DNA of 34,571 nt from Betaproteobacteria bacterium (GTDB taxonomy: Bacteria > Pseudomonadota > Gammaproteobacteria > Burkholderiales > Burkholderiaceae_C): assembly GCA_009923895.1 (NCBI GenBank), contig RFSP01000001.1:1-34571 (forward strand), read 5' to 3'. Positions 1 through 34,571 of this stretch are shown piece after piece. Position numbers and translations under genes: made by a program. The notes beneath the pieces were generated by a model. The model ran no database searches. It saw nothing but the letters and a program-made list of their open reading frames with translations, and had not been told where the DNA came from. Numbering within the stretch: the first letter of the stretch is position 1; every line of letters starts with the position of its first letter.

Positions 1-201
1 AGCACGATCGCCTTGCCCTGTGAGCACCACGGCGCGAATTTGCGGGTCTGCCTCCAGGGCCTTGACCACCGCGTCCAGACTCTGCGCCAATTCCGCGTTG
101 ACCGCATTGCGCGCCTCAGGTCGATTCAGCGTCACCACGGCGACATGCTCGGTGGGACAACGCAGCAAGACCGCCCCTTGATGAATTTCTGTGACTTTCA
201 T
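1..201 (-). CDS. Enoyl-CoA hydratase/isomerase (crotonase) family protein, N-terminal part (runs off window)
   Basis: Own translation from ATG at 201: MKVTEIHQGAVLLRCPTEHVAVVTLNRPEARNAVNAELAQSLDAVVKALEADPQIRAVVLTGQGDRA. VTLNRP..RNA and RAVVLTG are typical crotonase N-terminal motifs. ATGA overlap with the upstream gene's stop. Confidence 0.9.
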   Translation of the reverse strand, partial: MKVTEIHQGAVLLRCPTEHVAVVTLNRPEARNAVNAELAQSLDAVVKALEADPQIRAVVLTGQGDRA

Positions 202-1082: not shown

Positions 1083-1115
1083 GAAAAGTGTGGTGGGCGA
1101 TGGCCATCGCCGCGT

Positions 1116-2123: not shown

Positions 2124-2152
2124 GAGATGTCTCCTGATGTGGTTGGTTGTCT

Positions 2153-3346
2153 TCATGAAGAACGCTTGACGAACAGCGTACCGGCTGCCAACGCCTCTTG
2201 AACGGCAGCTTCATCACAACCGAGTGTACGCAGCAAGTCGGGCCCGTCTGCGCCCAGATCGGGGACCCGGTTACGGGCTTGAGCCACCGTGCGCTGGAAT
2301 CGAAATGCCGGGTTGGTGACTTTGAAAGGGCCCGAGCCATCGTCAATCGACTGCAAGACGTCTCTCTCGACGATGGGGGGTGCTTGCATGGCTTCTTTGA
2401 TCGTGAAATACCTCGAACAGGGCACACCCCCCTGGTTCATGATGGCCTCACATTCTTCGGCACTGCGATCACCGGCCCACTCATCCAGCAGCGCCATCAA
2501 TTCACCCCAGTGGTGCTCACGGGCATGCACATTGGCAAATCGATCGTCGCTCAACCACTCGGGGTGACCCACTGCACGCGCCAAAGCCTCAAAGTTATTT
2601 TGGCTGACAGGTGCAATCAGCAAGAACCCATCGCGGGCCTTGGTGGGCTGATACAGAGGCCGGCGACGCTCCGCAGGAAATTGGGCTTCTTGGCTCTCAT
2701 ACACCAGCAGGCCCAGCATGGCGTCCATCAAGGACACATCCACATGATCGCCCTGCCCTGTGCGGGCTGCCCGGTAAAGAGCCGCCTGAATCGCCCCAAA
2801 AGCAAGCGATCCACCCAACACATCTGCCACAAAGATCCCGTTCTTCAAGGGCCTCTCAATGCCGTCTTGATAGTGCAAATTGGCCAGATCAAAGCCGCTG
2901 GCCGCATGCAGCACCGGCGCGTAGGCGCTACGTCCTGCCCAAGAGCCTGTCTGTCCAAATCCGGAAATCGAGCAATACACCAACTTGGGCTGCAGTGCCG
3001 CCAAGGTGTCATAGTCCAGCCCCAGGCGTTTCATCACGCCGGGTCTGAAGTTCTCGACCACCACGTCGGCGGTGCTGACCAATTGTTTGATCAATGCAAT
3101 CGCCTGCGGCTTCTTCAGGTCCAACGCCAAGCTCTTCTTTCCACAATTCAACTGCGCAAAGTAAGTGCTGCGACCTTTGCGGCTTGGCGGTCGAGAGCGA
3201 ATGTGGTCGCCCGTGGGTGACTCAATCTTGATGACTTCGGCCCCCAAATCTGCCAGCAGCCGAGTGGCGTAGGGACCGGACATCATGGTGGTGAAGTCCA
3301 GGACTCGCACGCCATCGAGCGCGCCCGGACGTTGAGGCGTATTCAT
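2153..3346 (-). CDS. Family III CoA-transferase (CaiB/BaiF)
   Basis: LDGVRVLDF..MSGPYATRLLADLGAEVIKIE, VVENFRPG, SISGFGQTG, catalytic-Asp region FVADVLGG; start trimmed to MNTPQRPG. Confidence 0.93.
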   Translation of the reverse strand: MNTPQRPGALDGVRVLDFTTMMSGPYATRLLADLGAEVIKIESPTGDHIRSRPPSRKGRSTYFAQLNCGKKSLALDLKKPQAIALIKQLVSTADVVVENFRPGVMKRLGLDYDTLAALQPKLVYCSISGFGQTGSWAGRSAYAPVLHAASGFDLANLHYQDGIERPLKNGIFVADVLGGSLAFGAIQAALYRAARTGQGDHVDVSLMDAMLGLLVYESQEAQFPAERRRPLYQPTKARDGFLLIAPVSQNNFEALARAVGHPEWLSDDRFANVHAREHHWGELMALLDEWAGDRSAEECEAIMNQGGVPCSRYFTIKEAMQAPPIVERDVLQSIDDGSGPFKVTNPAFRFQRTVAQARNRVPDLGADGPDLLRTLGCDEAAVQEALAAGTLFVKRSS

Positions 3347-3356
3347 GCGGTCGGGC

Positions 3357-4244
3357 TCAAACCAAAGTGGATTCAGACACGGCCAGGCTGGCCAATTGGC
3401 CGCCGCCCAGAGCGTCCAGATAGTCTGTCTGGGTGGGTGCCCCATGGACATACTTTTGCAGATAGGCCGCAAAACCCGACTCGGTGGCACTGGCTTTGAC
3501 GTATTCAGCCAAATGACGCTCATCCGATCGATAAGCCGTCGGCGATGCCGTGGGGTGTGCCCCCCACGGCACCTCCACCACCGCATCCACCATGGCCGCT
3601 GGCAATTTGGTGAGATGGTTTTGTCGGCGTATGGTGTCCGTAGAGACGATGCGATCGACCTGCACGATCACGCGCTTTGACGCCTGCGCCAGCATCGCAT
3701 CAAAGAAAGGCGAGGCCAAATGTTGCACATTGCCGAATTCGTCTGCCTGTTGGGCGTGGATGAAACACACGTCCGGCCGGATGGCTTTGGCCGCCAACAT
3801 CTTGCGCTCGCCCGCCACGGCCGGGATTTCAAGATAGTAGTCAGGCGCATGTTTGGGCAGATCGGTGCCCAGGTCCGGTATGGGGTTCCAAGGCAAGTCG
3901 CAGATGGCGGCTCGCAAGCCACCGGCGATGGCGGGGCCGTCGAGGTCGACCACCTCCAGCGTGCCCGCTTCTGCCCTGCGGCGGAAATGGGGTGCCAGGC
4001 CAAATTGCTCAAAGCTGATGAACACACACGCAGTACGCCGCACGCACCCCGCGCCGATGAGCATGTCTGGCGCGATGGAGCTGGGTGCCGGAATGAGATC
4101 CAGATTGCGCGCGCCCTTGCGAATGAGCGCCCGCACCAGGGCCATGGGCTGGGCATTGAAGATCCAGCCCCCCAACCCCAGAGAAGCACCGTCCGGCACA
4201 CTGGCCACGGCCTCCTCAATGGAAACAATTTTGTTGTGACTCAT
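3357..4244 (-). CDS. Class I CoA-transferase-like subunit A (GctA/IpdA-like)
   Basis: KIVSIEEAV, LGLGGW...PMALVRALIR, PDVCFIHAQQADEFGN, VDAVVEVPWGAHPT. Confidence 0.85.
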   Translation of the reverse strand: MSHNKIVSIEEAVASVPDGASLGLGGWIFNAQPMALVRALIRKGARNLDLIPAPSSIAPDMLIGAGCVRRTACVFISFEQFGLAPHFRRRAEAGTLEVVDLDGPAIAGGLRAAICDLPWNPIPDLGTDLPKHAPDYYLEIPAVAGERKMLAAKAIRPDVCFIHAQQADEFGNVQHLASPFFDAMLAQASKRVIVQVDRIVSTDTIRRQNHLTKLPAAMVDAVVEVPWGAHPTASPTAYRSDERHLAEYVKASATESGFAAYLQKYVHGAPTQTDYLDALGGGQLASLAVSESTLV

Positions 4245-4258
4245 GGGGCTCGATCCTG

Positions 4259-5071
4259 TCAGGGAAACTTGCGTTGCAAGGTGCCGCGTACATCCACCCG
4301 CGTGCGCAAGAGATTCAATTCTTGTTCGGTGGGCCACATCGTCACGGGGGGTGTGCCCTTCACCAACAGATCAAACCCTGTGGCGTCTTGCACCTGTTGC
4401 AGACTCACCCCGGGGTGCAAAGACCGAATCCGCATGGCTTTGCTCTGAGGCTCAAAGTCAAACACACCCAAGGGCGAGACGACGAGCTTGGGTCCCCCGG
4501 GGGGCAGGCCCGCCCGCTCTCTCGAGTCGCCCCCTTGCAAGTGACCCGCGCCGCAGATGAAGTCCACCCGCGGACGAAACGCACTCTTGTCATGCCGTGT
4601 CAGCACCACATAGAAGCGCTTGGCCAGTCCGCACAGCGCACTGATGCCGACCGTTCCAGGTCCACGCACCTTCGGTCGCGCACGATCACCCACCACCACA
4701 GTATTGATGTTGCCAAAGCGGTCCACCTGGAGCGCCGACAAAATGGCGAAATCAAAGAAGTGGATCTTCCAGTCGATGAAGTCGATCATGTTGGGAAGAT
4801 CCATCCATGACTCTGACGACTCGATGTTTTCAAAGTCCGCCGTGGACAACAAGTGATCGCGCTGCGGGTTGACCATGCCCCCGGGCCCTGAGACCCACCA
4901 AAGGCGAGGGGCCTGCATTTGGCGGGCCAAATTGCAAGCCGCCAATTGGATGTCGGAGTTGGTGCCGATGATGACTTTTTCACCATCGGCCATGTCGCGC
5001 GCCAACAAGACCGCCAAAGTCTCTCCGAGAGCAGGGGCCGAGGCTGCGGGTGCGATATTTGGTTGAACCAT
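4259..5071 (-). CDS. Class I CoA-transferase-like subunit B (GctB/IpdB-like), apparently lacking the catalytic Glu
   Basis: QVDRFGNINT, F..RVDFI, GPKLVVSPLGVFDF, SLHPGVS..QVQDATGF. The position of GctB 'IIVESG' reads 'WWVSGPG'. Confidence 0.85.
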   Translation of the reverse strand: MVQPNIAPAASAPALGETLAVLLARDMADGEKVIIGTNSDIQLAACNLARQMQAPRLWWVSGPGGMVNPQRDHLLSTADFENIESSESWMDLPNMIDFIDWKIHFFDFAILSALQVDRFGNINTVVVGDRARPKVRGPGTVGISALCGLAKRFYVVLTRHDKSAFRPRVDFICGAGHLQGGDSRERAGLPPGGPKLVVSPLGVFDFEPQSKAMRIRSLHPGVSLQQVQDATGFDLLVKGTPPVTMWPTEQELNLLRTRVDVRGTLQRKFP

Positions 5072-5072
5072 T
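5058..5072. promoter_or_regulatory. Candidate FadR-subfamily operator (TGGT-N3-ACCA)
   Basis: TTTGGTTGAACCATT with palindromic core TGGTTGAACCA (5060-5070). It resembles PdhR/LldR-type boxes and lies next to a FadR-type regulator gene. Confidence 0.55.
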
Positions 5073-5077
5073 GGGCA

Positions 5078-5107
5078 ATGGTACGCGTTGCCCCCCGACC
5101 CTGTCAA
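5078..5107 (-). promoter_or_regulatory. Sigma70-type promoter for the CoA-transferase operon (probably leaderless)
   Basis: Minus strand TTGACA (5107-5102), 18-nt spacer, TACCAT (5083-5078), 6 nt, then ATG 5071; no Shine-Dalgarno. Confidence 0.65.
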
Positions 5108-5136
5108 CCCGGTCGGACTCGCAGTTGCGGCCGCTG

Positions 5137-6012
5137 TCAGGCCTTGGCCAACGCGCTGGACTTGGCGCGGGCTCTGGGCCGGGTCCCAGACGCCCCCCTG
5201 ACTGGTGCTTTGGCCTTTTTCGACGCGGCCAGCTCGCTCTCCACCATGGACAGGTAGCTGCGCTGCAGCCGCTTGAGGCTGCTTTCCATTTCAGCCACAG
5301 CACCTTCCACATCACCCGCTTCCATGTGCTTCATGAAGCGACGCCGAGAAGGCAACACATAGGCATTTTGGTAGTCGCCGATGGAGCGAACAAACATCAG
5401 CAACACCGACAACACGCCATCCATCACGATCACCATGATGGGATTGCCCGTCATGCGGGCCAGGATGCGGTGAAAGTTCAAATGCTGCTCAACGCGGCTG
5501 TCAAAGTCGCCCCGCTCAAACGCCGCCTGCGCTTCGTCGATGTTGCGGTGGAGTTCCGCCAAATCTTCGGCGGTGGCCCGGCGGCAAGCCTCACGCACGA
5601 TGATGGACTCCAGCCAAATTCGCGCCTCTGTCAGCTGCGCGGGGTGAATGGAGCCCACACGATACAAATCCAACAAGCCGTTGACGATGGCCTCGCCGCT
5701 TCGCTCACTGATGAAGGCCCCACCGCTGGCGCCTTTTTGCAGCCGAATCAGCCCGGCATGCTCCAATGACCGCAGGGCCTCTCGCAAAGTGTTGCGCGAA
5801 ACGCCAAATTGCTCCGACAGCGCACGCTCCGAAGGCAGGCGGCTGCCCACTTTGAGGCGGCCTGCGGCCAATTCATTGCGGATCTGCGCGGCGATCTCTT
5901 CAAACGCCCGTGCCGAGCGGATGGCCTGAAATCCGACCGAAGCCGACCGAGACTCAGCGCCCACAGACCGTTCAGGGGTGCGCAGCAACGTGCGCGTTGT
6001 GCGTTCAGCCAC
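5137..6012 (-). CDS. GntR family, FadR subfamily transcriptional regulator (HTH + FCD)
   Basis: RLPSERALSEQFGVSRNTLREALRSLE HTH; FCD motif FHRILARMTGNP; AAGGAG before the GTG start. Confidence 0.93.
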   Translation of the reverse strand: MAERTTRTLLRTPERSVGAESRSASVGFQAIRSARAFEEIAAQIRNELAAGRLKVGSRLPSERALSEQFGVSRNTLREALRSLEHAGLIRLQKGASGGAFISERSGEAIVNGLLDLYRVGSIHPAQLTEARIWLESIIVREACRRATAEDLAELHRNIDEAQAAFERGDFDSRVEQHLNFHRILARMTGNPIMVIVMDGVLSVLLMFVRSIGDYQNAYVLPSRRRFMKHMEAGDVEGAVAEMESSLKRLQRSYLSMVESELAASKKAKAPVRGASGTRPRARAKSSALAKA

Positions 6013-7984: not shown

Positions 7985-8779
7985 CTATTGTCCTCGATCC
8001 AGATCCCACTGGCTGGGATGCCATCCGCCCAACGCCCACTTGGCCAAGGCCGACGTGGTCAAAAAGAGCAGGACACCCGTGACCGCAATCAGGGTCAGGG
8101 CCGCAAACATGCGGGGAATGTTCAATTGGTATCCCGACTGCAGAATCTGGTAGGCCAGGCCCGTGCCCGCCCCTCCAGCACCCGCCACGAATTCCGCCAC
8201 GATGGCCCCAATGAGCGACAGTCCAGCACTGATGCGCAAGCCGCCAAAGAAATAGGGCAATGCCGACGGAATGCGCAAGCGCCACAGCACCTGCCAGCGG
8301 GAGGCCCGCTGCAGACGGAAATAGTTCATCAACCCCACGTCCACACTGCGCAAGCCCAAGGTGGAGTTGGAAATCACGGGAAATATGGCGGCCAGGGTGG
8401 CACACCACACCAGTGCCCAGGTGGTGTCCTTCACCCAAATGATCACCAAAGGCGCCACGGACACGATGGGGGTGACTTGCAACAACACGGCATACGGGAA
8501 GAACGCCCGCTCCAGCCAGCGGCTTTGCACAAAGGCCAGCGACACGCCCACGCCCAACACCGTGGCCACGGCCATGGCCAGCAAGGTGATGTGCAGGGTA
8601 TTGCGCCAAGCAGCCACCAAGATCGGCCAGTCCTGCACCAAAGCCTCCACCACGCGTTCGGGAGAAGGCACGAGATAGACGGGAATCTCCCACGCCAAGA
8701 CGGCGGCTTGCCACAGGCCCAGCAAAGCCATCCCCACCAGCACCGATGGGCCCACACGGCGTGCGAGGTTCATGACCAT
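7985..8779 (-). CDS. ABC transporter permease, NitT/TauT family
   Basis: [47 protein letters not shown]. Confidence 0.92.
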
Positions 8780-8795
8780 GGTCCAGCGAGGCCGT

Positions 8796-9581
8796 TCAAG
8801 CCAGGGCCATTTCTGGCCCGCCCACGCTCGCCTCCAGCAAAAGATCTTGCAAGCGTTTGGCCCAAGCGTTGAATTGCGGTGTCATGCGAAATGAGGGGTC
8901 CCTGGGGTATGGCGCGTCCACCGCAACCTCGGCCACCACGCGGCCCGGGCTGGCCGCCATCACCACCACCCGCTGCGACAAGTACACCGCCTCGACAATC
9001 GAGTGGGTGACAAAAAGAACCGTGAGCTTTCTGGACGACCACAACTGCAGCAATTCGCTGTCCAACCGAGATCGGGTGATCTCGTCCAACGCAGAAAAAG
9101 GTTCGTCCAACAGCAGCAAGGTCGGGTCGGTGGCCAAGCTGCGCGCGAGTGACACGCGCATGCGCATGCCGCCGGACAGCTCGTGCGGTCGATGGCGCGC
9201 AAAGGCCTCCAGCCCCACGCCTTTCAATGCGGCTTGCACACGGGGTTGTGATTTTTCTCGGGGCATCCCCGCCAGGTCCAGCGGCAGCCTCACATTGGCT
9301 TGAACGCGTGCCCACGGCATGAGGGTGGGCTCTTGAAACACAAAACCCAAGCGTTGATCTGATCCGACCTCCACTTGGCCCTGGCTCGGCGAAAGCAGAC
9401 CGGCCACCATGTGCAGCAAGGTGCTCTTGCCACATCCGGAGGGCCCCAGCAAGGTCACAAATTCGCCCGGCGCCACCCGCAAGTCCACAGGCATCAGCGC
9501 TTGTGTGCCGTTGGGGTAGACCTTGGCAGCCGAAGTCACGCGAATGGCCGCGGCGCCGTCTTCCTCCCCCCGATCGATCAC
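8796..9581 (-). CDS. ABC transporter ATP-binding protein, NitT/TauT family
   Basis: Walker A GPSGCGKST, FVFQE, LSGGMRMR, Walker B LLLLDEPF, FVTH. Confidence 0.95.
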   Translation of the reverse strand: MIDRGEEDGAAAIRVTSAAKVYPNGTQALMPVDLRVAPGEFVTLLGPSGCGKSTLLHMVAGLLSPSQGQVEVGSDQRLGFVFQEPTLMPWARVQANVRLPLDLAGMPREKSQPRVQAALKGVGLEAFARHRPHELSGGMRMRVSLARSLATDPTLLLLDEPFSALDEITRSRLDSELLQLWSSRKLTVLFVTHSIVEAVYLSQRVVVMAASPGRVVAEVAVDAPYPRDPSFRMTPQFNAWAKRLQDLLLEASVGGPEMALA

Positions 9582-9597
9582 CTTGCGATCCTCCCGC

Positions 9598-10584
9598 TCA
9601 GGGCATGACCTTGAGATTTTTCACAAATTCGAGGGTGTAGGTCCGCTTGAAGTCCACTTTGGTCGGATCCAAGAGCTTCAACGACACCATGATGTCGTAG
9701 GTCTTCTTCAGCCGCTCTTCGGTCATGACCCCAATGCCCAACTTGGCGGCATCGCCCCCCGACACCAGCCCGGTCTCGTTCATCATCTTGATGCCATGAG
9801 CGATGAGATCGTCAGTCATGTTGGGGTTGTCTTTCTTGATCAGCGCGTTGGCAGCCGAAGGGTCCCCTTTGAGATAGCTCTTCCATCCTTCCATGCTGGC
9901 TTTGACAAAGGCCGCCACCGCTTTGGGACGCTTCTTGATGGTGTCTTCCATGCACACGATGGTGGTGGAATAGGGGGGCCACCCATGGTCGGCCATCAAG
10001 AGCGCTGTGGGCTTGAACTTGGCCTGCTTTTCAATGGCGTACGGCTCGCTCGACAAATACCCCTGTTGCACGGTATTTTTGTCAGCAATGAAGGGCTGGA
10101 CGTTGAAAGTGTAGGGGCGCACCTGCGAATCGGACAACCCGTAGACGCTTCGCAGCCAAGGCCAGAAATTGGTGTTGGCGTCAGAAGAGATCAAAATGGT
10201 TTTGCCCTTGAGGTCTTCCATTTTCTTGAAGACCTCGGGGTGACCAATCATGACCTCGGGGTCTTTTTGGAAGGCGGCAGCGACGGTCACGGCACGCACC
10301 CCTTGCTCGTGCACCTTCATGGTTTGCACGTCGTAACCCATGTAGCAATCGGCCTGGCCCGCGGCCAGCAACTGCAAGCCATTGACCTGCGGACCGCCCA
10401 TGCGCAAGGTCACATCCAGTCCGGCTTTCTTGTACAGGCCTTGGGCCAAAGCTTGATAGAAGCCGCCGTGCTCGGCTTGCGCAAACCAATTGGTGAGATA
10501 GACGAACTTTTCTTGGGCAAGGGCAGCCGAGGAGAGAGAGGCTGAAAAAGCCGCCACGAGACCGATGAAAAAGGGGCGATTCAT
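9598..10584 (-). CDS. ABC transporter substrate-binding protein, NMT1/THI5-like
   Basis: Signal peptide; TNWFAQAEHGGFYQA...GLYKKAGLDV, GGPQVN, FQKDP, QQGYLSSEP. Confidence 0.88.
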   Translation of the reverse strand: MNRPFFIGLVAAFSASLSSAALAQEKFVYLTNWFAQAEHGGFYQALAQGLYKKAGLDVTLRMGGPQVNGLQLLAAGQADCYMGYDVQTMKVHEQGVRAVTVAAAFQKDPEVMIGHPEVFKKMEDLKGKTILISSDANTNFWPWLRSVYGLSDSQVRPYTFNVQPFIADKNTVQQGYLSSEPYAIEKQAKFKPTALLMADHGWPPYSTTIVCMEDTIKKRPKAVAAFVKASMEGWKSYLKGDPSAANALIKKDNPNMTDDLIAHGIKMMNETGLVSGGDAAKLGIGVMTEERLKKTYDIMVSLKLLDPTKVDFKRTYTLEFVKNLKVMP

Positions 10585-10643
10585 GATGCTGAACCTCAAC
10601 ATGCGTGGGGGACGCATTGTGCCCAATTTCAGAAAAGTTCGCC

Positions 10644-13337: not shown

Positions 13338-14132
13338 TCAGGGGCTCCTGCGCAAGCCCGACGGGGGCACTTGGGTGGTCACGCCTTGCATTCGAACAGC
13401 ATACCCTTCAGGGTGACGCAAATCTGCCGACACGAACCGGCTTCGAAACTGGCGCGTCACCTGGGAAATGGTGCGGACAAAGCGATGGGTGCGCGACACC
13501 ACTTCCTCGTCAGAGCCGCGTCCCAATTCAATGCTTCCGCCGCCGTCCAAGTCGATTCGCCAGGACCCCCGTCCCGACAAGGCCAGACGCTCAACAGACC
13601 GGTCCAACTTGCTCATGAGGGGCTTGAGCTGCTGAAACATGGCCCACATCCGGGGCGCGGTGCCCTCTGGCCCAGACAGCAAGGGCAGGCCTTCGTCTTC
13701 CACATCGCCCACATTGGCTTGAAACACCTCGCCAAAATTGTTCACCAAGCGGTCGTCGCCGTTGTCGCTCTCCCACAACGCCACCGCGCGGTGCTCTTCA
13801 AGCCGCGCTGCCAAGGCGTGCGGCCACACCCTGCGCACCACCGCCGTACGGACCCAAGGCACCCCTTCAAAAGCCTTTTGCGCGGCCTGCAAATCCAAGG
13901 TGTAGAAGTTCCCTGAAAGCTTGGGCATGACCACGGCCCGTACGGTGGGCACACTGCTGCGCGCGAGCTCACCTTCGAGCTGAATGCCCCGCACTGCAAA
14001 CCACGGTGCTCTGACCAGCCAAGCCAGACCGGCGGCCACCAGAACCGCAGCCAGCAGTCCCAGCACGGCAGCAGAGACCCCGTTCATCAGGCGAATGTCC
14101 AAGGGCACAGACGGACGGCTCAAGGTGACCAT
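13338..14132 (-). CDS. ftsQ: Cell division protein FtsQ/DivIB
   Basis: Single TM helix, POTRA domain (GNFYTLDL..VPWVR.AVVRRVWP), DLRHPEGYAV; TGATG overlap with ddl. Confidence 0.95.
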   Translation of the reverse strand: MVTLSRPSVPLDIRLMNGVSAAVLGLLAAVLVAAGLAWLVRAPWFAVRGIQLEGELARSSVPTVRAVVMPKLSGNFYTLDLQAAQKAFEGVPWVRTAVVRRVWPHALAARLEEHRAVALWESDNGDDRLVNNFGEVFQANVGDVEDEGLPLLSGPEGTAPRMWAMFQQLKPLMSKLDRSVERLALSGRGSWRIDLDGGGSIELGRGSDEEVVSRTHRFVRTISQVTRQFRSRFVSADLRHPEGYAVRMQGVTTQVPPSGLRRSP

Positions 14133-15118
14133 CAGGACTGTCCCCCGTGCGAGGCGTGGTGGGCGGGGTGATCCAAAGCCGCATCGGCCAGCAATCGCAG
14201 GCACAGTTCTTCGTAGCTGATACCCGCCGCCTTGGCCGACATCGGAACCAGCGAATGGCTGGTCATCCCGGGAGACGTGTTCATCTCCAGAAGGAAGGGC
14301 TTGCGATCGGAGGCCCTGACCATCAAGTCGGCCCGGCCCCAACCCCGACAGCCCAGGGTTCGATACGCCGCCAAAACCAAGCGCTGTATCTCGGCCTCTT
14401 CTGTGGCGCTGAGCCCACTTGGGCAGTGATACTGCGTCACGTCGGTGAAGTACTTGTTTTGGTAGTCGTAGGCGCCTTGAGGCGCGACGATCCGCACCAC
14501 CGGCAGGGCTTGCGCTTGGGCGCCCGTGCCCAAAACAGGGCACGTCACCTCGTCGCCTTCGATAAATTCTTCACACAACACTTCGGTGTCGTAGCGTGCG
14601 CTCAGGGCCACCGCCTCGGCCATCTGGGAGTAGCCTTCGACCTTGGTCACACCGATCGAAGATCCTTCGTGAGGAGGTTTGACGATCAGCGGCAACCCCA
14701 AGGCGTCAGGCACGGTTCTGACCACCTCTTGCGTCTGTCGTTCGGCAGCCAAACAGATCCAGCGAGGCGTCGACAAGGATTCCGATTGCCACACCCGCTT
14801 GGTCATCACCTTGTCCATGGCGATCGCGCTGGCCATCACCCCAGAACCTGTGTAGGGGATGCCCAACCATTCCAATGCGCCTTGGATCGAGCCGTCCTCG
14901 CCATAGCGCCCGTGCAAGGCGATGAAGACGCGGTCAACCCGCTCCTGCTTGAGGTCTTCCAAAGGCCGCTGGGCAGGATCAAAAGCCATGGCCTTCACGC
15001 CCGACGATTGCAGGGCCGCCAACACGCCTGCCCCCGACATGAGCGACACCTCACGCTCGGCACTGAGCCCGCCCATGAGCACGGCCACTTTGCCCAGGCG
15101 AGCCACGTCGATGCTCAT
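14132..15118 (-). CDS. ddl: D-alanine--D-alanine ligase
   Basis: [56 protein letters not shown]. Confidence 0.98.
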
Positions 15119-16188
15119 GCGCGCACCCACCTTTCCAGCTCGTCAGCCACGCGTTCAGCGGCGTGCGGCTTGGCCAGGGCACGGGCACATTCAGCCATCG
15201 TCAACAACTGATTTCGACTCCAGCCTTCCATCAGTTCGCGCAAGGTCTTGGGGGTCAGTTGGTCTTGGGGCAGGTGAACGGCCGCGCCGTGCCGTGCCAT
15301 CCACAGGGCGTTGTCTCTTTGATGAGACGTGGTGCTCACCACCAGCGGCACCAGGACCGAAGGCACCCCTGCAGCGCACAATTCACTCACCGTGACAGCG
15401 CCTGCGCGGCAGATCACCACATCACAGTCCGCCAAGGCCTGCGCCATATCGTCTATGAAGGGCCGCACATCGGCTTGCACTTGGTGCTGCTCATAGGCCT
15501 GGCGCACCTGATCGGCGTGGGCCGAACCGGCCTGGTGCAACACCCGGGGGCGCGCCCGCTGCGACATTTCGGCCAGGGCGGCGGGCACGACGTCGTTGAG
15601 CGCCTTGGCCCCCAAGCTTCCGCCCAGCACCAGCAACTTCAGGGGGCCTGATCGGGCCTCCCACCGCGACTGCGGCGTCGGGATGGCTTCGATTTCTTGA
15701 CGCACCGGGTTGCCGGTGACGATGGCCTTGTCCACCCGCTGAGAGACGGCGCCTTCAAATCCAAACACCACCCGTTGAGCCAGCGGCATCAAGGCGCGGT
15801 TGGACAACAACAATCCGGCATCGGCATTGACCAAGACCAAGGGCTTGCGCAGCAACGCGGCCATGAGCCCTCCGGGAAAGCAGACGTAACCGCCCATGCC
15901 CAGCACCACATGGGCCCCGCGTCGCCGCAGCACCTGAAAGCAACGCACCAGCGAGGCCAGCAACTTGAAGACGCCGGTCACGGTGTGTCGCCATCCTTTG
16001 CCCCGCAAGCCTGAAAAGTCCACCGTGTCCATCTCAATGCCCGTGGGCGGCACCAAGCGGTTTTCCATGCCATGGCGGGTTCCCAGCCAGCTCACGCTCC
16101 AGCCACGGCGCTGCATTTCACGCGCCACCGCCAAGCCCGGGATGATGTGTCCCCCAGTTCCTGCGGCCATGACCACCAAATGACTCAC
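15115..16188 (-). CDS. murG: Undecaprenyldiphospho-muramoylpentapeptide beta-N-acetylglucosaminyltransferase
   Basis: [46 protein letters not shown]; GTG start overlapping the ftsW stop. Confidence 0.98.
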
Positions 16189-17468
16189 AGTCGCCCCCCC
16201 CTCATCAAGGAGCGATTCTCCATGTCGGCCCGCACCACAATGGCCACAGCCACCAAATTGAGCAAGATGGCTGAGCCGCCGTAACTCATCAAGGGCAAAG
16301 TCAGTCCTTTGGTGGGGAGCACGCCCAGGTTGACGCCCATGTTGATGAAGGACTGAAAGCCAAACCACACCCCAATGCCCTGCACCATCAGGCCTGCAAA
16401 GACGCGGTCCAGTGCAATGGCCTGACGACCGATGGCCACAATGCGGCGGGTGAGCCAGAAGAAGGTGATGATCACGGTGGCCACACCGATAAAGCCCAGC
16501 TCCTCACCAATCACAGCCAAGAGGAAGTCGGTGTGGGCCTCGGGCAGGTAATGGAGTTTCTCCACCGAAGAACCCAAGCCTTGACCGAAGATTTCACCGC
16601 GTCCAAATGCAATCAACGAGTGCGTCAATTGATAGGCCTTGCCCTGTGCATAGGCGGGATTCCAGGGGTCCAAATAAGCCAAGATGCGGGTGCGTCGCAA
16701 GTCATCAAAGGCAATGATCAGCGCAAAGGCGCCAATGGCCATGGCCGCGATCAAGAAGAACATGCGGGCGTTGACGCCTCCCAAGAAAAGCACCGCCATG
16801 GCGATCGTGGCAATCACCAAGAACGCGCCCATGTCAGGTTGCCGAAGCAGCAAGACGCCCACAAACAACACAGCCAATGCCATGGGCCAGACCGCTCGAA
16901 CAAAGTTCTCACGGGCCTCCATCTTGCGCACCATGTAGCTGGCTGCATACATGGCAATGGCCAACTTGGTGAACTCAGAAGGCTGGAAATTCATGATGCC
17001 CAAGGGAATCCAGCGCCTCGAGAAATTCACCACCTTGCCAATGAAGGGGATCAACACCACGATCAACAGCACGATGGAAATGAGAAAGACAATCCGGGCG
17101 TGCTTTTCCCAAAACGAAATGGGCATCTGCACCACCGCCAAAGACACCACCGATGCCAAAGCGATGAACAGGACATGCCGCGATAGGAAATAAGTGGGAG
17201 CGTATCGAGAGAACTTGGGGTTGTCGGGCAAGGCCACCGAGGCCGAATACACCATCACCACACCCAACATGACGAGTGCCACCACCACGCCCACCAAAGC
17301 CTGGTCAAAACCGGCCATGCGGGTCACACGGTCGGTGGCGCGATCAAGGCCATCGCGCACCGGTGCCGCTCCATGGACCTCCGATGCACGATTTCGCGCA
17401 TCCCACCAGGACTTCAAGCCTTGAATCGACAAGCGAGTCGACAAGCGAGAGGTCAACGACGCGCTCAT
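16185..17468 (-). CDS. ftsW: SEDS peptidoglycan glycosyltransferase FtsW
   Basis: [50 protein letters not shown]. Confidence 0.98.
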
Positions 17469-18175
17469 GCGGCCTCGCTCGCTTTCGCACTGCCACGTGC
17501 ATCGCGCAGGGCGTGCAGCATCGGGGCCAAAGGACAGCCCAACACACTGCCCAAGGTCAATGCCGTCAAGGCAGACAGCACCGTCGCCGCCTGTTGTTGC
17601 GAATCGTCCGTCCAGCCCGACAGGGCCTGCGAAGGCATCAATCGCTGCAAATGGATTTCAGAGGCCTCGTCCTTGCGCTTTCGCAGGCCGTCATCATCGG
17701 AGATGGCCCGCACCAACCACCGCATACCGCCTTCGGTGACCTCTCCCCAATCGCCCGATCTCGTGGGCGCGTCCAGGCCCACCCCAACTGCCACGCGCGG
17801 TGCGACTTTGACAGCGTGACGAGGGCTCCGCCCAGCGGGCACGGCCGTGGGAGCCAAGGCCGCAACGGCCTCGACATCTCGGCGCAAAATCATTGCCCCC
17901 GAGGTGCCCAGAAAGCTCCCAGCCTGCGAACCGACGGCGTCCAACACGGCCACAGCCGATGGATTCCAATCAGGACTCCATGTCAGATGGGACGCTTCCT
18001 CATCGGACAGACTCCACACCACAATGTCGGGGCCCGATTGCTCAGGCGTGGGAGGCGCCGTCTCACCACGCACGCAGGTCACGGTTCTGCCCGCTCGGCT
18101 CAAGAGAGCCGAGGTCACTCCCGCTGCCTGTTCAAGCAAACGGGTAGAGGCCACGATCAATACCACTTGACTCAT
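17465..18175 (-). CDS. murD: Degenerate, truncated MurD-derived protein (236 aa, central domain only, catalytic motifs lost); pseudoenzyme or open-frame pseudogene
   Basis: Occupies the murD slot between mraY and ftsW with ATGA overlaps at both ends. Residual similarity to recalled Burkholderiales MurD ([44 protein letters not shown]). No GTNGKTT, ELSSFQL, DHLD, or N- and C-terminal domains. Confidence 0.8.
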
Positions 18176-19353
18176 CGCAACTTCAAACTGGCCAGTCCCA
18201 CCAGACACAACAACATCGTGATGATCCAGAACCGAACGACCACTTGGGTCTCGGTCCAACCCTTTTTCTCGAAATGGTGGTGCAAGGGCGCCATCAAAAA
18301 GATGCGGCGCCCCTCGCCGTAGCGTTTGCGGGTGTATTTGAACCAGCTCACCTGAATGATCACGCTCATGGCCTCGGCCACGAAGATGCCCCCCATGATG
18401 GCCAGCACAATTTCCTGTCGGGTGATGACCGCCACCGTCCCCAAGGCACCGCCCAACGCCAGGGCACCCACGTCTCCCATGAACACCTGCGCCGGGTTGG
18501 CGTTGAACCACAAAAATGCGAGCCCCGCTCCCGCCATGGCGGCACAAAAGATGAGCAGTTCGCCCGAGCCCGGAATGTAGGGAAACAGCAGGTACTTGGA
18601 ATACACCGAACTGCCCGTCACGTAAGCAAAGATGCCCAGGGCCGACCCCACCAACACCACCGGCATGATGGCCAGTCCATCCAGGCCATCGGTGAAATTC
18701 ACGGCGTTGCTGGCGCCCACAATGACAAACCAACTCATGGCAATGAAGCCATACACCCCCAAGGGATAGCTCACCGACTTAAAAAACGGCAACATCAAGT
18801 CTGCCTTGGGTGGCAGCTCATTGGAAAAGCCGCTGGTGATCCACCGCAAAAACAACTCCAGCACACGCAGATTGGTGTTCTCCGACACGCTGAAGGCCAA
18901 ATAGGCCGCGGCCAACAATCCAATCAAAGACTGCCAAAAGAATTTTTCTCGCGATCGCATCCCTTCGGGGTCTTTGTAGACCACCTTGCGGTAGTCATCG
19001 ACCCAACCGATGGCGCCATAACCAAAGGTGACCAGCATGACGACCCACACGAATCGGTTGGACCAGTCAAACCAGCACAGCGTGGACACCCCAATGCCGA
19101 TCAAGACCAAGACGCCACCCATGGTGGGGGTCCCTCGTTTGCCCAAGTGGGACTGCACACCGTATTCGCGAATCGGCTGGCCGATCTTCATCTGCGTGAG
19201 CCGACGGATCACCCAAGGACCAAAGGCCAAGCCAATCAGCAGCGCGGTCATGGCAGCCAACACCGCTCGGAAAGTGATGTACTGAAAGACCCGCAAGAAG
19301 CCCAAGGCTTCAGGGCTCAATGACATCAACCATTGGCTCAGGCTAAGCAGCAT
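18172..19353 (-). CDS. mraY: Phospho-N-acetylmuramoyl-pentapeptide transferase
   Basis: [46 protein letters not shown]. Confidence 0.99.
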
Positions 19354-20761
19354 GTTGTCTTCCTTGCGAGGTCAAAGCCTGGACCACACGCTCCATGGCC
19401 ATGAACCGTGAGCCTTTGACCAGCACCGATTTCACCGAGGGCATGTTCAGGGAGTCTTGACTCAGGGCCTGCACCAGGGTCATCGTGTCAGCAAACCAAC
19501 GCGCCTTCGGACCAAAGGCTTGAGCAGCCGCCTCACACAAAGTCCCGGCACACCACAGGTGCTCCAGACCCTGCTCGCGCGCATACGCTCCCACTTCTGT
19601 GTGAAAGGCAACGCCTTGATCGCCCACCTCTCCCATGTCTCCCAAGATCAACCATCGAGGTGCGGGCAGCTCGGTCAAGACGTCAATGGCCGCCCGAACC
19701 GAATCTGGGTTGGCGTTGTAGGTGTCATCAACGAGCGACACCGATGCAGCCGCTCCACCCGCCAGGTGGCATGCCATCAAACTCGAGCGCCCTTTGACGG
19801 CCCGAAACGCATTCAACCCGGATTCGATGGCCTGCATGGGTGCTCCGGCGGCTACAGCGGCAGCCGCCGCGCCCAATGCGTTCTTGACGTTGTGACGGCC
19901 CGCCATGTGCAAGACAAAAGACAGAGGTCCCGCCGGCGTGGTGGCTTGTACCTGCCATCCTTGGCCCTGCCATTTCGAGCGACCGAGCACATCGGCCTTG
20001 ACCGCGTCTGCTGCCGAAGTGTCGCGGGCCAAAGCAAAGGTCATCGTGCGTCGAGCGCCGGCCAGCTCACGCCACAGCGGGGCGTACGCATCGTCGGCTG
20101 GAAAGACAGCGGTCCCGTCGGGCGGCAAAGAGGCAATCACGGCGCCGTTTTCTTCGGCCACCGCTTTGACTGTGGCCATGAACTCCTGATGCTCACGCTG
20201 GGCGTTGTTGACCAGAGCCACGTGTGGGGCAGACATGGCCGCCAGTCCTGCAATCTCGCCGGGGTGATTCATGCCCAGCTCCAACACCGCCGCCTCATGG
20301 TGCGCACGCAATCGCAGCAAGGTCAAGGGCACACCGATGTGGTTGTTGAAATTGCCTTCGGTGGCCAAGGAGCGATCTGCCTTCCAGGCCCTCAATATGG
20401 CCGCAATCATCTGCGTGACCGTGGTCTTGCCATTGCTGCCGGTGACGGCTATCACGCACAGTTGCAGCTGCTGCCGCCAGCCGGCCGCCAAGGTTTGCAG
20501 GGCCCACAAACTGTTCGGCACCTCAATGCCAGGCAAGTCGCTGGCCTGCAGTCCCCGCTCGGCTACAGCGGCCAACGCCCCTGCTTTTTTGGCCTGCGGC
20601 AAGAAGTCATGGGCATCGAAACGATCCCCACGCAAGGCCACAAAAAGATCGCCCGGCCGCAAGGTCCTCGTGTCGGTATGCACCCGCTGCACACGCAGTG
20701 CCCCGTCCCCCAACAAGACGGAGCCGGGCAGCAGGGCGTGGGCTTGTGACAAGGACAGCAT
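19343..20761 (-). CDS. murF: UDP-MurNAc-tripeptide--D-Ala-D-Ala ligase (stand-alone, not a MurE-MurF fusion)
   Basis: [68 protein letters not shown]. Confidence 0.97.
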
Positions 20762-22548
20762 CAAAAGCTCTCCTGTTCTGCAGGGCCCGGTTGCACGGCG
20801 ATTTGCGGCTTGAACTCAATGTCAGGGGCCACATTCATCATGCGCAAGGTTTGCTGAACCACTTGCGCGAACACCGGGGCGGCCACGTCACCGCCAAAGT
20901 AGATGCCTTTGCTGGGCTCATCCACCATGACCGCCACCACGATTCTGGGAGCACTCACGGGTGCGAGTCCCACAAACCACGCGCGGTATTTGTTGGATGC
21001 GTAAGTCTTGCCTTCCTGCTTGTGGGCCGTCCCGGTCTTGCCACCCACCGAATAGCCCATGGCTTGGGCCTTGGGAGCGGTACCTCCTGGCCCCGCGGCC
21101 ATTTGGAGCATCTTGCGCACTTCTTGCACCGTTTTGGCTGACAGCACACGCACGCCTGCAACCGGCATCGGCTTGCCGTCGGGCCCTTTCGCACTGGAGT
21201 CCTGGCGCAGCATGGTCACGGGAATCAATTCGCCATCCCGCGCAAAGACGGTGTAGGCGCGCGCCATCTGAAACAGCGAGGCCGAGAGCCCATAGCCATA
21301 GCTCATGGTGGCCTGCTCGATGGGCCGCCACGTCTTGAAAGGGCGCAAACGGCCCGTCACGGTGCCAGGAAACTCCAGTTGGGGCTTCTGACCAAAACCC
21401 ACCTGAGAGAAAAGCTCCCACATCTCGCGGGGCGCCATCTGCATGGCCATCTTGACCGTGCCCACGTTGCTGGATTTTTGAATCACCTCCTGCACGGTCA
21501 ACACGCCGTGCGGGTGCGCATCTTTGATGGTCGAGCCGGTGATGTTGATCGCCCCTGGCGCGGTCTGTATGGGGGTCTGCGGGGTGACACGGCCGGTCTC
21601 GATGGCCAGCGAAGCCACAAAGGGCTTCATCACCGAACCGGGCTCAAAAATGTCGGTCAACGCCCGATTTCTCAATTGAGCGCCCGACAAGCCTTGGCGG
21701 CTGTTGGGGTTGAAGCTGGGGTAATTGGCCAGGGCCAAGACTTCACCCGTCACCACGTCAAGGACCACCACGCTACCGGCCTTGGCGTTGTGTTCCATGA
21801 CCGCATCGCGCACGCGCTGCCATGCGAAGAACTGCACCTTGCTGTCAATCGACAACGTGATGTCACGTCCATTGACGGGCTCCAAGCGATCGCCAATGTC
21901 CTCCACCACCCGACCCAGCCGGTCCTTGACCACGCCGCGGGATCCGTCCTTGCCCTTCAAGTGGTCTTGAAAGGCCAACTCGATGCCTTCTTGTCCCGCC
22001 TCCTCAACGTTGGTGAATCCCACCACATGTGCAGCCGCCTCGCCCTCCGGGTAGCTGCGACGGAATTCAGGGACTTGGTACACACCTTTGGCGCCGACGG
22101 ACTTGACCTGTTCCCACACCTCGTTGTCCACCTGCCGACGCAACCAAGCGAACTCCCCACTGCCTTCGGTGCGCGACTGAAGCTCCGCAGCCGACATGCC
22201 CAACAACTGCGACAGCGCCTTGCGTTGGGCCACGTCGGCCTCGAAGTCCTTGGGGATGGCCCACACCGAGGGCGTGGGCACACTGGTGGCCAAGACGACG
22301 CCATGGCGATCAAGAACCCGCCCCCGGCTGGCCGGCAATTTCAAGGTGTGCGCGTAGCGCTTTTCACCCTGCTTGAGGTAAAAGTCTGCACCCACGACTT
22401 GGATATAAACGGCCCGACCAATCAACAGCAAGAAAGCCAGCGCCACCATCACCACGACGAAACGCGACCGCCAAGGTGGCGTCTTGCTGGCCAGCAACGG
22501 GCTGGTGGCGTAATTGACCCCTCGTGCTGCGGTGGCCGGGCGCATCAC
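20761..22548 (-). CDS. ftsI: Penicillin-binding protein 3 (septal D,D-transpeptidase)
   Basis: N-terminal TM, RGRVLDR, SxxK (GSVMK), SxN (SSN), KTG; start is GTG 22548 or ATG 22545. Confidence 0.97.
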   Translation of the reverse strand: MMRPATAARGVNYATSPLLASKTPPWRSRFVVVMVALAFLLLIGRAVYIQVVGADFYLKQGEKRYAHTLKLPASRGRVLDRHGVVLATSVPTPSVWAIPKDFEADVAQRKALSQLLGMSAAELQSRTEGSGEFAWLRRQVDNEVWEQVKSVGAKGVYQVPEFRRSYPEGEAAAHVVGFTNVEEAGQEGIELAFQDHLKGKDGSRGVVKDRLGRVVEDIGDRLEPVNGRDITLSIDSKVQFFAWQRVRDAVMEHNAKAGSVVVLDVVTGEVLALANYPSFNPNSRQGLSGAQLRNRALTDIFEPGSVMKPFVASLAIETGRVTPQTPIQTAPGAINITGSTIKDAHPHGVLTVQEVIQKSSNVGTVKMAMQMAPREMWELFSQVGFGQKPQLEFPGTVTGRLRPFKTWRPIEQATMSYGYGLSASLFQMARAYTVFARDGELIPVTMLRQDSSAKGPDGKPMPVAGVRVLSAKTVQEVRKMLQMAAGPGGTAPKAQAMGYSVGGKTGTAHKQEGKTYASNKYRAWFVGLAPVSAPRIVVAVMVDEPSKGIYFGGDVAAPVFAQVVQQTLRMMNVAPDIEFKPQIAVQPGPAEQESF

Positions 22549-32370: not shown

Positions 32371-33153
32371 TCAAAATTGGCTGAAGTCGGGTTTTCGCTT
32401 CTGGAAGAAGGCCTGGAAAGCCTCTTGGGCCTCCGGGCTGCGAAGCCGAGCACCGAAGAGCGCGCCTTCCTCGCGAATCGTCTTGAGGACGGCCTCTCGC
32501 TGCGGCGCGCGCATGAGTTGCTTGGCTTCGCGCACGGCCCCAGGCGGTAATGCGTTGAAGCGCAGTGCCACGCGACGGGCATGGTTGACCACTTCTGAGG
32601 CCGGCAGCACGGCATTGGCAATGCCACATTCCACGGCTTGCTCGGCGGTGAAAGGGTCCCCCAGCAGGAGCTTCTCAGCGGCCCGTCGATGCCCCATGAG
32701 TTGTGGCACCACCAGGCTGGACGCGAACTCGGGCACGAGCCCCAAGGACACGAAGGGCATGGCCAAACGTGCTTCATCGCTGACGTACACAAAGTCGCAA
32801 TGCAGCAACAAAGTGGTGCCAATGCCAATGGCGGCCCCAGTCACCGCGGCAATCACCGGCTTGTCACAAGACAACAGCGCTTGCATGAACTGGAACACAG
32901 GAGAGTCCATGGCATCGCTGCCTTGTCCTGGCGGACGGCTCATGAAGTCTTCAATGTCATTGCCAGAGGTGAAGATGCCAGGCTGGCCCGTGATGAGCAC
33001 CGCCCTGACTTTGCCCTCGGCCTGAGCCTCTTTCAGGGCCTGCGCCATGGCCGAGTACATCTCACGGGTGAGTGCGTTTTTCTTTTCTGCTCGGGCGATT
33101 TCTATGGTGGCCACACCGTCCAAGACAGCGAATCGGATATGGGGGCAAGTCAT
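32371..33153 (-). CDS. Enoyl-CoA hydratase/isomerase family protein
   Basis: KKNALT, FTSGND, KPVIAAVTGAAIGIGTTLLLHCD, PFVSLGLVPE. Confidence 0.93.
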   Translation of the reverse strand: MTCPHIRFAVLDGVATIEIARAEKKNALTREMYSAMAQALKEAQAEGKVRAVLITGQPGIFTSGNDIEDFMSRPPGQGSDAMDSPVFQFMQALLSCDKPVIAAVTGAAIGIGTTLLLHCDFVYVSDEARLAMPFVSLGLVPEFASSLVVPQLMGHRRAAEKLLLGDPFTAEQAVECGIANAVLPASEVVNHARRVALRFNALPPGAVREAKQLMRAPQREAVLKTIREEGALFGARLRSPEAQEAFQAFFQKRKPDFSQF

Positions 33154-33186
33154 TCGGTCTCCTTACACAATGAGGGGGCCTGCACT

Positions 33187-34386
33187 TCAAACACGCTCGA
33201 ACAGGCCGGCTGCGCCCTGGCCCATGCCCACGCACATGGTGAGCATGCCGTACTTGAGCTGATGGCGATGCAGCGCATGGACCACCGTGGCGGCGCGAAT
33301 GGCGCCTGTCGCTCCCAAAGGGTGCCCCAGTGCAATCGCGCCTCCCATGGGATTGACCTTGGACGGATCGAGACCCACGGTATCCATCACCGCCAAGGCC
33401 TGCGCGGCAAAGGCTTCGTTCAACTCCACCCAACCGATGTCATTGAGTGTCAACCCGGCGCGTTTGAGCACGGCAGGAATCGCCTCGATCGGCCCAATGC
33501 CCATGATTTCCGGTGGGACGCCTCGCACCGCAAATCCCACAAACCGGGCCAGAGGCTTCAAACCAAAGGTCTTCACCGCCTGTTCACTGGCGAGAATCAA
33601 CGCCCCTGCACCGTCGCTGGTTTGCGAGCTGTTGCCTGCGGTCACTGAGCCCTTGGCTGCAAACACCGGCTTGAGTTTGGCAAGGCCGTCCAATGAAGTA
33701 TCGGGACGCGCGCCCTCGTCGAGGTTGACCGTGCGTGTCTTGGTGATCACCTCTCCCGTGGCCAAATTGGGCAAACGGTCCAGCACCGTGACCGGGGTCA
33801 TTTCGGCGGTGAAGTGCCCATCGGCCATGGCCTTCAAGGCCTTTTGGTGCGATGCCAGCGCAAAGGTGTCTTGACGCTCGCGGGTGATCTTCCACTGCTG
33901 CGCCACCTTTTCTGCCGTCAAGCCCATGCCATAAGCAATGCCCACGTTTTCGTCGCGCGCAAACACCTCGGGATTGAACGAGGGCTTGTTGCCGCCCATG
34001 GGCACCATGCTCATGCTCTCAGCGCCGCCTGCAATCATCACATCGGCCTCGCCCACACGGATGCGATCGGCTGCCATCTGAATGGCCGTGAGGCCCGAGG
34101 CACAAAAGCGGTTGATGGTGACGCCGCCCACGGTGTGCGGCAGCCCCGCAATCACCATGGCCGCACGGGCCATATTGATGCCCTGCTCAGCCTCCGGAAA
34201 GCTGCAACCCACCACGGCATCTTCGATGGCTTTGGGGTCCAGGCTCGGCACTTGAGCCAACGCGCTGCGAACCGCAGCCACCAACAAATCATCAGGCCGG
34301 GTGTTTTTAAAGTAGCCCCGGCCCGACTTGCCGATGGGGGTGCGGGTGGCTGCGACGATGTAAGCGTCTTGTACTTGCTTGCTCAT
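33187..34386 (-). CDS. fadA: Acetyl-CoA C-acyltransferase (3-ketoacyl-CoA thiolase)
   Basis: INRFCASG, NEAFA, GAIALGHPLGATG, TMCVGMGQG. Confidence 0.95.
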   Translation of the reverse strand: MSKQVQDAYIVAATRTPIGKSGRGYFKNTRPDDLLVAAVRSALAQVPSLDPKAIEDAVVGCSFPEAEQGINMARAAMVIAGLPHTVGGVTINRFCASGLTAIQMAADRIRVGEADVMIAGGAESMSMVPMGGNKPSFNPEVFARDENVGIAYGMGLTAEKVAQQWKITRERQDTFALASHQKALKAMADGHFTAEMTPVTVLDRLPNLATGEVITKTRTVNLDEGARPDTSLDGLAKLKPVFAAKGSVTAGNSSQTSDGAGALILASEQAVKTFGLKPLARFVGFAVRGVPPEIMGIGPIEAIPAVLKRAGLTLNDIGWVELNEAFAAQALAVMDTVGLDPSKVNPMGGAIALGHPLGATGAIRAATVVHALHRHQLKYGMLTMCVGMGQGAAGLFERV

Positions 34387-34415
34387 GAATGTTTCTCCAC
34401 GCTCGATGTCCAGAC

Positions 34416-34571
34416 TCAATTGCGCACCGGCTTGCCGGTGGACAGCATGCCCATGATCCGCTCCTGGGTCTTGGGGTGTTCCAGCAGCGCACAAAAGCGC
34501 TCGCGCTCCAGGGCCATGAGATATTCCTCGTTGACCAAAGATCCCGCATCCACATCGCCGCCACACACCAC
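34416..34571 (-). CDS. 3-hydroxyacyl-CoA dehydrogenase/enoyl-CoA hydratase (FadN-like), C-terminal end (runs off window)
   Basis: Own translation VVCGGDVDAGSLVNEEYLMALERERFCALLEHPKTQERIMGMLSTGKPVRN*, a typical FadN-type C-terminus directly upstream of the thiolase. Confidence 0.85.
   Translation of the reverse strand: MVCGGDVDAGSLVNEEYLMALERERFCALLEHPKTQERIMGMLSTGKPVRN

What the first reader, a model, noticed from the sequence alone, without database searches (positions are those of the whole stretch)
14132..22548. dcw cluster missing exactly the three ligases that build UDP-MurNAc-tripeptide (murC and murE deleted, murD inactivated)
Seen: the order is ftsI-murF-mraY-[236-aa ORF]-ftsW-murG-ddl, every junction overlaps, and there is no room for murE or murC. 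MurF, Ddl, MraY, MurG, FtsW and FtsI keep their catalytic motifs, so lipid II-pentapeptide is presumably still made. Known: the canonical proteobacterial order is ftsI-murE-murF-mraY-murD-ftsW-murG-murC-ddl, and MurC/D/E are normally essential. Inference: three separate losses at non-adjacent loci, hitting three consecutive pathway steps, suggest the whole L-Ala/D-Glu/mDAP sub-pathway became redundant here. Candidate explanations: (a) Mpl, which ligates preformed L-Ala-gamma-D-Glu-mDAP to UDP-MurNAc and bypasses exactly MurC+D+E, fed by scavenged tripeptide or by an unknown tripeptide synthetase; (b) a replacement ligase set elsewhere, possibly acquired and with a non-canonical stem peptide, by analogy with the MurD2/MurL route of Xanthomonas; (c) simple relocation of the native genes.
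Basis: partly seen in the sequence, partly recalled or inferred. Interest (0 to 1): 0.93.

Follow-up and report, generated by a model that had tools for sequence, protein, structure and literature searches.

The report
MurD split into enzyme and pseudoenzyme
The cell-wall genes murC, murD and murE are not lost in this river bacterium but sit together in a second small operon, while a catalytically dead middle piece of MurD stays conserved in the old cluster, which suggests that MurD likely has a second, non-enzymatic job.

Summary
The gene order is as described, but the genes are not lost. Contig C115 of the same genome carries the murE 3' end, murD and murC; near-identical contigs from other metagenomes supply full murE with the DAP-type DNPR motif. 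Trees place this cassette at the genome's own vertical position. Mpl also occurs in relatives with normal clusters, so no bypass is needed. Two related species (G217, G225) share the split; 62 other genomes examined keep murE in place.

The new part is the 236-aa ORF. It is MurD's central domain alone, without P-loop or other catalytic motifs, yet it is under purifying selection (dN/dS about 0.28) and length-stable across seven species-level variants. It keeps a beta-hairpin/loop region that is as conserved as the active site in relatives' MurD, and the relocated catalytic MurD has deleted or degraded exactly that region. Best reading: duplication of murE-murC, reciprocal gene loss, and partition of MurD into an enzyme and a likely non-catalytic scaffold (partner unknown). 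One sister species has an in-frame MurE-MurD fusion, a type not among the published chimera classes I read.

The parts
20761..22548 (-). ftsI (class B PBP)
   Evidence: Pfam Transpeptidase + PBP_dimer
20761..20764 (-). ftsI/murF overlap: empty murE slot, no scar
   Evidence: bridged in 4 of 4 runs
19343..20764 (-). murF
   Evidence: TIGR01143 392.6 bits, cut-off 288.6
18172..19353 (-). mraY
   Evidence: Pfam Glycos_transf_4 + MraY_sig1
17465..18175 (-). 236-aa MurD central-domain-only protein; P-loop, ELSSFQ, DHLDWH and RGRHN motifs lost; likely non-catalytic
   Evidence: alignment; model pLDDT 88.9; best fold matches are MurD; dN/dS about 0.28
17621..17797 (-). conserved core, residues 127-185: hairpin with WLVRA, basic RK loop and HLQRLMP; the region deleted or decayed in the relocated catalytic MurD
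   Evidence: 22 of 33 invariant positions among 7 variants, Fisher p 4e-8; region identities
16185..17468 (-). ftsW
   Evidence: Pfam FTSW_RODA_SPOVE
15115..16188 (-). murG; the only resident gene of six with a long stem branch in the split clade
   Evidence: TIGR01133; stem/reference 0.48 vs 0.11-0.20
15115..15118 (-). murG/ddl overlap: empty murC slot, no scar
   Evidence: same adjacency in G217 and G225
14132..15118 (-). ddl
   Evidence: TIGR01205 327.7 bits

Best explanation
murC, murD and murE form a separate murE-murD-murC operon elsewhere in this genome, likely made by duplication of the murE-murC stretch followed by reciprocal gene loss, and the 236-aa ORF left in the cluster is MurD's central domain without its catalytic motifs, likely kept for a non-enzymatic binding or scaffold role. 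Shown: the second operon, its intact motifs, the shared split in three species, selection on the ORF, and the mirror-image conservation between the two MurD copies. Inferred: (1) duplication, because the cassette keeps the dcw order E-D-C and murD exists in both places; (2) a standard L-Ala-D-Glu-mDAP stem, with D-Glu probably from D-amino-acid transaminase; (3) ancestral MurD of this group had two jobs, catalysis and a job of the hairpin/loop region, which the two copies divided; (4) that job is most likely docking the Mur pathway at the membrane, with MurG the leading candidate partner (untested, about 1 in 4).
For: Cassette on C115. Full murE, and a link to the genome's contig C164, in 98-99% identical contigs L049/L052/L050. 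Cassette and cluster occur at similar contig depth in 3 DNA runs, e.g. X2 about 6 vs 5-8 (depth is not copy number). Same split in G217 (cassette on a 71.6-kb contig) and G225. Cassette tree matches resident tree; cassette MurD nests among insert-bearing MurDs, 98-99 support. ORF G000 vs G225: pN/pS 0.54 (0.45-0.64), codon-position identity 0.56/0.69/0.38. 14 of 15 cluster members are 236 aa. Identity to full-length MurD, ORF vs cassette: P-loop 0.25 vs 0.63, ELSSFQ 0.17 vs 0.84, WLVRA 0.73 vs 0.33, IHLQRLMP 0.68 vs 0.33; the loop is covered 8% in the cassette. DHLDWH-RGxHN spacing is 78-85 aa in 8 of 8 cassette rows and 99-147 in 60 of 60 others. Mur-Mur binding via central domains and MurG scaffolding are reported in Bordetella (PMC10214165, PMC6420597; passages read).
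Against: G000 itself holds only the last 83 codons of murE; the rest comes from conspecific contigs. C115 is GC-rich for the bin (rank 112 of 115 contigs of 3-5 kb; tetranucleotide distance rank 90 of 115). AU tests do not reject distant donors for the cassette (p 0.15 and 0.20). ORF and cassette MurD are not sisters in the best domain-2 tree; sisterhood is only not rejected (p 0.44). dS is near saturation (1.9), so dN/dS is rough, and the ORF is the fastest-changing gene of the cluster (G000 vs G217: 29% identity, pN/pS 0.63-0.86). The hairpin strands may be conserved for folding alone. Expression is not shown: an RNA-library contig spans most of the ORF, but contigs cannot prove transcription.
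Confidence: 0.6

Rival explanations
1. Same relocation, but the ORF is a slowly decaying spacer, kept open only to couple translation of mraY to ftsW-murG-ddl-ftsQAZ; the insert loss in the cassette is plain streamlining.
For: ATGA overlaps at both ends. One promoter drives mraZ-ftsZ in Burkholderia cenocepacia (PMC7761207, passages). The ORF evolves fastest in the cluster, and the G217 copy is shorter (209 aa) on a branch of 2.16.
Against: murE and murC were deleted cleanly with new overlaps, so a spacer was not needed there. Conservation is concentrated in one block (p 4e-8) and mirrors the cassette's losses. pN/pS is below 1 with the interval excluding 1; 12 of 20 listed strain variants are synonymous.
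Confidence: 0.22
2. The second copy came by transfer of a dcw segment from a close relative (same genus or neighbour) rather than by internal duplication; reciprocal loss followed in the same way.
For: The cassette follows tRNA-Arg in G217 and tcuAB in G000/G225. Cassette domain 2 groups with G185/G170 (96/86). Long stem branches; AU tests inconclusive.
Against: Full-length trees leave the cassette at the vertical node. GC3 matches resident genes. Best hits outside the clade are 48-53% identical MurDs, named Rubrivivax/Ideonella/Sphaerotilus/Burkholderiales where named.
Confidence: 0.14
3. Mpl bypass or a non-canonical stem peptide.
For: mpl is present (pieces on C358 and C87). No MurI over the cut-off in 5 of 5 genomes.
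Against: Intact MurC, D and E with HRYTR, DSKGTN/GGDGKG/SPACAS and DNPR motifs. mpl is also in canonical relatives G018 and G187, and MurI is also missing there, so neither tracks the split. dapF and a D-amino-acid transaminase-like gene in the dacA-dat-lipB position are present.
Confidence: 0.03

Closest known systems
Canonical betaproteobacterial dcw operon (e.g. Bordetella murE/F-mraY-murD-ftsW-murG-murC, PMC10214165 passages; B. cenocepacia, PMC7761207 passages)
   Same: All genes are present in the genome, and the relative order is kept in both fragments.
   Different: The murE-murC block is divided into two complementary sets: F, Y, D-remnant, W, G in place; E, D, C elsewhere.
MurD (TIGR01087; E. 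coli central domain about residues 94-295, PMC4816537 passages)
   Same: The ORF aligns to and folds like the central domain (Foldseek E 2.4e-10 to 7sir).
   Different: No N- or C-terminal domain, no P-loop; no Pfam or NCBIfam hit; keeps two inserts absent from Pseudomonas MurD 7sy9.
Plastid MurE-like PAP11 (PDB 8qma/8r5o, seen; its structural role in plastid RNA polymerase is recalled, not checked)
   Same: A Mur ligase derivative reused outside catalysis.
   Different: Eukaryotic organelle, MurE-derived and long; here a bacterial MurD single domain stays in the dcw operon.
Mur chimeras MurE-MurF, MurC-Ddl, MurC-MurB, MurG-MurC, MurD-FtsW, MraY-MurG (PMC10214165 passages)
   Same: G225's cassette encodes a fused Mur pair.
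   Different: It is MurE-MurD (981 aa), not named in the passages read; the paper's supplement was not opened.
Mpl recycling ligase; Xanthomonas MurD2/MurL route
   Same: mpl is present.
   Different: Not needed as a bypass; MurL not found in 5 genomes (the control rang nowhere, so weak).

Membership tests
MurD (236-aa ORF) | three-domain architecture | tested here: not met
   central domain only
MurD (236-aa ORF) | P-loop GxxGKT, ELSSFQ, DHxDxH, GxHN motifs | tested here: not met
MurD (236-aa ORF) | homology and fold of the central domain | tested here: met
   (the model used MurD rows in its alignment, so the fold match is not independent)
pseudogene (236-aa ORF) | neutral decay: frameshifts, dN/dS near 1 | tested here: not met
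MurD (cassette) | TIGR01087 cut-off and catalytic motifs | tested here: met
   342.9 vs 211.95
MurC (cassette) | TIGR01082 cut-off and HRYTR motif | tested here: met
   535.5 vs 335.1
DAP-adding MurE (cassette) | TIGR01085 cut-off and DNPR motif | tested here: met
   met in conspecific L049; G000 contig starts at NPR
vertically inherited cassette | same tree position as resident genes | tested here: inconclusive
   best trees agree (99/97) but AU does not reject distant donors
Mpl bypass | murC/D/E absent from the genome | tested here: not met
MurD2/MurL route | murL present | tested here: inconclusive
   0 of 5 genomes, but no control rang
scaffold pseudoenzyme | expressed, and binds a cell-wall protein | not testable with these tools
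   needs proteomics and binding assays

The most novel reading that the evidence does not exclude
MurD in a large part of the Burkholderiales is a two-function protein: besides adding D-Glu, its conserved hairpin and basic loop anchor the Mur ligase pathway to a membrane or division partner. This river clade split the two functions into separate genes, leaving the first natural stand-alone scaffold module of the long-proposed Mur complex.
Probability: 0.4. Interest if true: 0.78.

Novelty: new variant of a known kind. Interest (0 to 1): 0.52.

Why it matters
Whether Mur ligases form a real complex in the cell, and why dcw gene order is so conserved, are open questions. Here evolution has separated MurD's catalytic part from a part that had to stay in the operon, which names a 60-residue region to test. 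That region is as conserved as the active site in relatives (0.86-0.88), and a similar insert occurs in 8 of 23 MurDs read from other families of the order. The case also shows three consecutive ligases working outside the dcw operon, and a MurE-MurD fusion. The originally proposed new wall pathway is not there.

Tried and rejected
Loss of murC/D/E, Mpl bypass and an altered stem peptide: rejected. Misassembly: rejected. Cassette MurD from a short-domain family of the order: not supported by the best tree. Complex prediction of the ORF with MurF and MurG: never ran because the queue was full; no result either way. Junction pattern search over 222 genus genomes: uninformative, 2 matches outside G000, not examined and taken as chance. 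ESM Atlas: only weak leads, one cluster with 47% Mur_ligase_M. MurC-only quick tree: position unresolved. FastTree cassette tree: position inside the group unresolved. Within-species depletion of changes in residues 127-185: 2 of 59 vs 20 of 177, p 0.076, not significant. Patchy cassette cover in RNA run X7 (19 of 30 bins) was not interpreted. Nine literature searches showed no listing that describes this split, a MurD central-domain pseudoenzyme or a MurE-MurD fusion; 'MurE-MurD' occurred once each in 2 papers that I saw as listings only. The library lacks most subscription papers. Earlier-findings look-ups gave nothing on this locus and two unrelated relocations.
Full report
Observation. The cluster reads mraZ-mraW-ftsL-ftsI-murF-mraY-ORF236-ftsW-murG-ddl-ftsQ-ftsA-ftsZ on the minus strand, with overlapping junctions throughout. 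Contigs from four other runs bridge the ftsI-murF, mraY-ORF, ORF-ftsW and ftsW-murG junctions. The genome is a 2.14-Mb, 412-contig bin, 80% complete. Named best homologs are Rubrivivax, Ideonella and Sphaerotilus, so I take it as a Rubrivivax-like member of the Burkholderiales (inference). Of 20 runs holding the stretch, 16 are labelled river or freshwater and 4 are unlabelled.

The missing genes. A Mur-ligase search of the genome found four matches: murF, two on C115 and mpl on C358. C115 begins with the last 83 codons of murE (NPR...IAGKGHE), then murD, murC and a converging D-amino-acid dehydrogenase-like gene (label recalled). Metagenome contigs L049, L050 and L052 are 98-99% identical, supply a 524-aa MurE with DNPR, and join C115 to the bin's contig C164 (tcuAB-like genes, label recalled). 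All three ligases pass their NCBIfam cut-offs. mpl is present in 5 of 5 genomes tested, two of them with normal clusters; dapF in 5 of 5; MurI over cut-off in 0 of 5, including a complete genome. A D-amino-acid transaminase-like gene lies between a D-Ala carboxypeptidase-like gene and lipB-like genes and is the likely D-Glu source. The pathway is therefore ordinary in chemistry.

Distribution. Among 221 other genus genomes searched with the cassette MurD, two stood out (69% and 59% identity). Both G225 and G217 have the same split cluster with a MurD remnant (240 and 209 aa) and the cassette elsewhere; in G225 the contig ends 67 codons into murC. They are small (2.8-2.9 Mb) and form a clade with G000 (support 100). 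In 62 of 62 other genomes whose dcw stretch I fetched (chosen by similarity, some cut by contig ends), murE lies next to ftsI and/or murF, and murD and murC are in place wherever the stretch covers them. The cassette follows tcuAB in G000 and G225 but tRNA-Arg in G217.

Origin. The careful tree of MurE+MurD+MurC (25 taxa, conspecific MurE used for G000) puts the clade with the G185 and G018 groups at 99/97, as the resident genes do. Cassette MurD nests among insert-bearing MurDs and away from the short-domain MurDs of other families, so its short domain is a secondary loss. AU tests do not reject distant donors (p 0.15, 0.20), so vertical descent is the best estimate, not proven. The E-D-C order and two murD descendants point to duplication of at least murE-murC with reciprocal loss. 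Why C, D and E ended up together is not shown. One guess is that extra copies of the membrane-linked genes mraY, ftsW and murG were purged first, after which the redundant murE and murC left the cluster. Stem branches are long for the cassette genes (stem/reference 0.41, 1.31, 0.76) and for MurG (0.48), against 0.11-0.20 for five other resident genes.

The 236-aa ORF. It starts at the strand before the P-loop and ends just before the hinge HR motif, i.e. the central domain (E. coli boundaries from PMC4816537, passages). P-loop, ELSSFQ, DHLDWH and RGRHN are gone. Six 90%-identity clusters of 236-249 aa exist, plus the G217 form; 14 of 15 members of its own cluster are full length. Against G225, pN/pS is 0.54 (0.45-0.64) and dN/dS about 0.28, with dS near saturation. 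12 of the 20 listed strain variants in the ORF are synonymous; the table showed 40 of 96 sites. The model is confident (pLDDT 88.9) and matches MurD structures best, though MurD rows were in its alignment. The key result is the mirror pattern: the ORF lost the catalytic motifs and kept WLVRA and IHLQRLMP, which are 86-88% conserved in 21 full-length MurDs; the cassette MurD kept catalysis, degraded those motifs and deleted both loops. 22 of 33 invariant ORF positions fall in residues 127-185. This is what division of two ancestral functions predicts. In Bordetella, Mur ligases bind each other through central domains (PMC10214165, passages) and MurG acts as scaffold (PMC6420597, passages); with MurG's acceleration this makes MurG my leading candidate partner, untested. 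The spacer reading stays open because the ORF is the fastest-changing gene of the cluster and expression is not shown.

Fusion. In G225, murE and murD are one frame that hits both family models. Its cluster has three 981-aa members differing by 10-20 residues, with identical junctions, from Logan and NCBI, so it is unlikely to be a single assembly slip. MurE-MurD is not among the chimeras named in the passages of PMC10214165 that I read; its supplement was not opened.

Papers. I read passages only of PMC10214165, PMC7761207, PMC4816537 and PMC6420597; all others were seen as listings.

Verdict. Observation confirmed; the exciting reading (a new route to the tripeptide) is refuted. What remains is a real, clade-wide split of the dcw operon with a selected MurD pseudoenzyme. 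New variant of a known kind, interest 0.52.

Noticed in passing
L163:10626-13565 (G225:C9): In-frame MurE-MurD fusion of 981 aa, three strain variants; a chimera type not named in the survey passages read.
   Followed up: partly
G000, G217, G225, G018, G187: No glutamate racemase over the cut-off in 5 of 5 genomes, one of them complete; a D-amino-acid transaminase-like gene (G000:C140:1544-2458) may supply D-Glu in this genus.
   Followed up: partly
L160:6949-7025 (G217:C11): The cassette starts directly after tRNA-Arg(ACG), behind hemC and neighbouring hem-like genes; a different site from G000/G225.
   Followed up: partly
window 7985-10626: An NMT1-type ABC transporter (three genes) lies between ftsZ and lpxC; G217 and G225 show ABC genes at the same place.
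   Followed up: no
L224-L253, L031-L048, L196-L215: A MurD central-domain insert ending in LMPxDAL marks one branch of the order (8 of 23 order-level MurDs read, 60 of 60 mostly family-level rows); no paper on it was found.
   Followed up: partly
G000:C358:19336-20070 and C87:3929-4438: mpl is broken across contig ends at nearly the same place in G000 and G225 (model position 244).
   Followed up: no
L184 and L193 (G135): Two similar dcw clusters in one bin (7% contamination), probably mixed strains.
   Followed up: no
window 198-6012 and 32371-34566: CoA-transferase, MaoC, TctC and GntR genes at one end and enoyl-CoA hydratase/thiolase at the other; ordinary catabolic genes.
   Followed up: no
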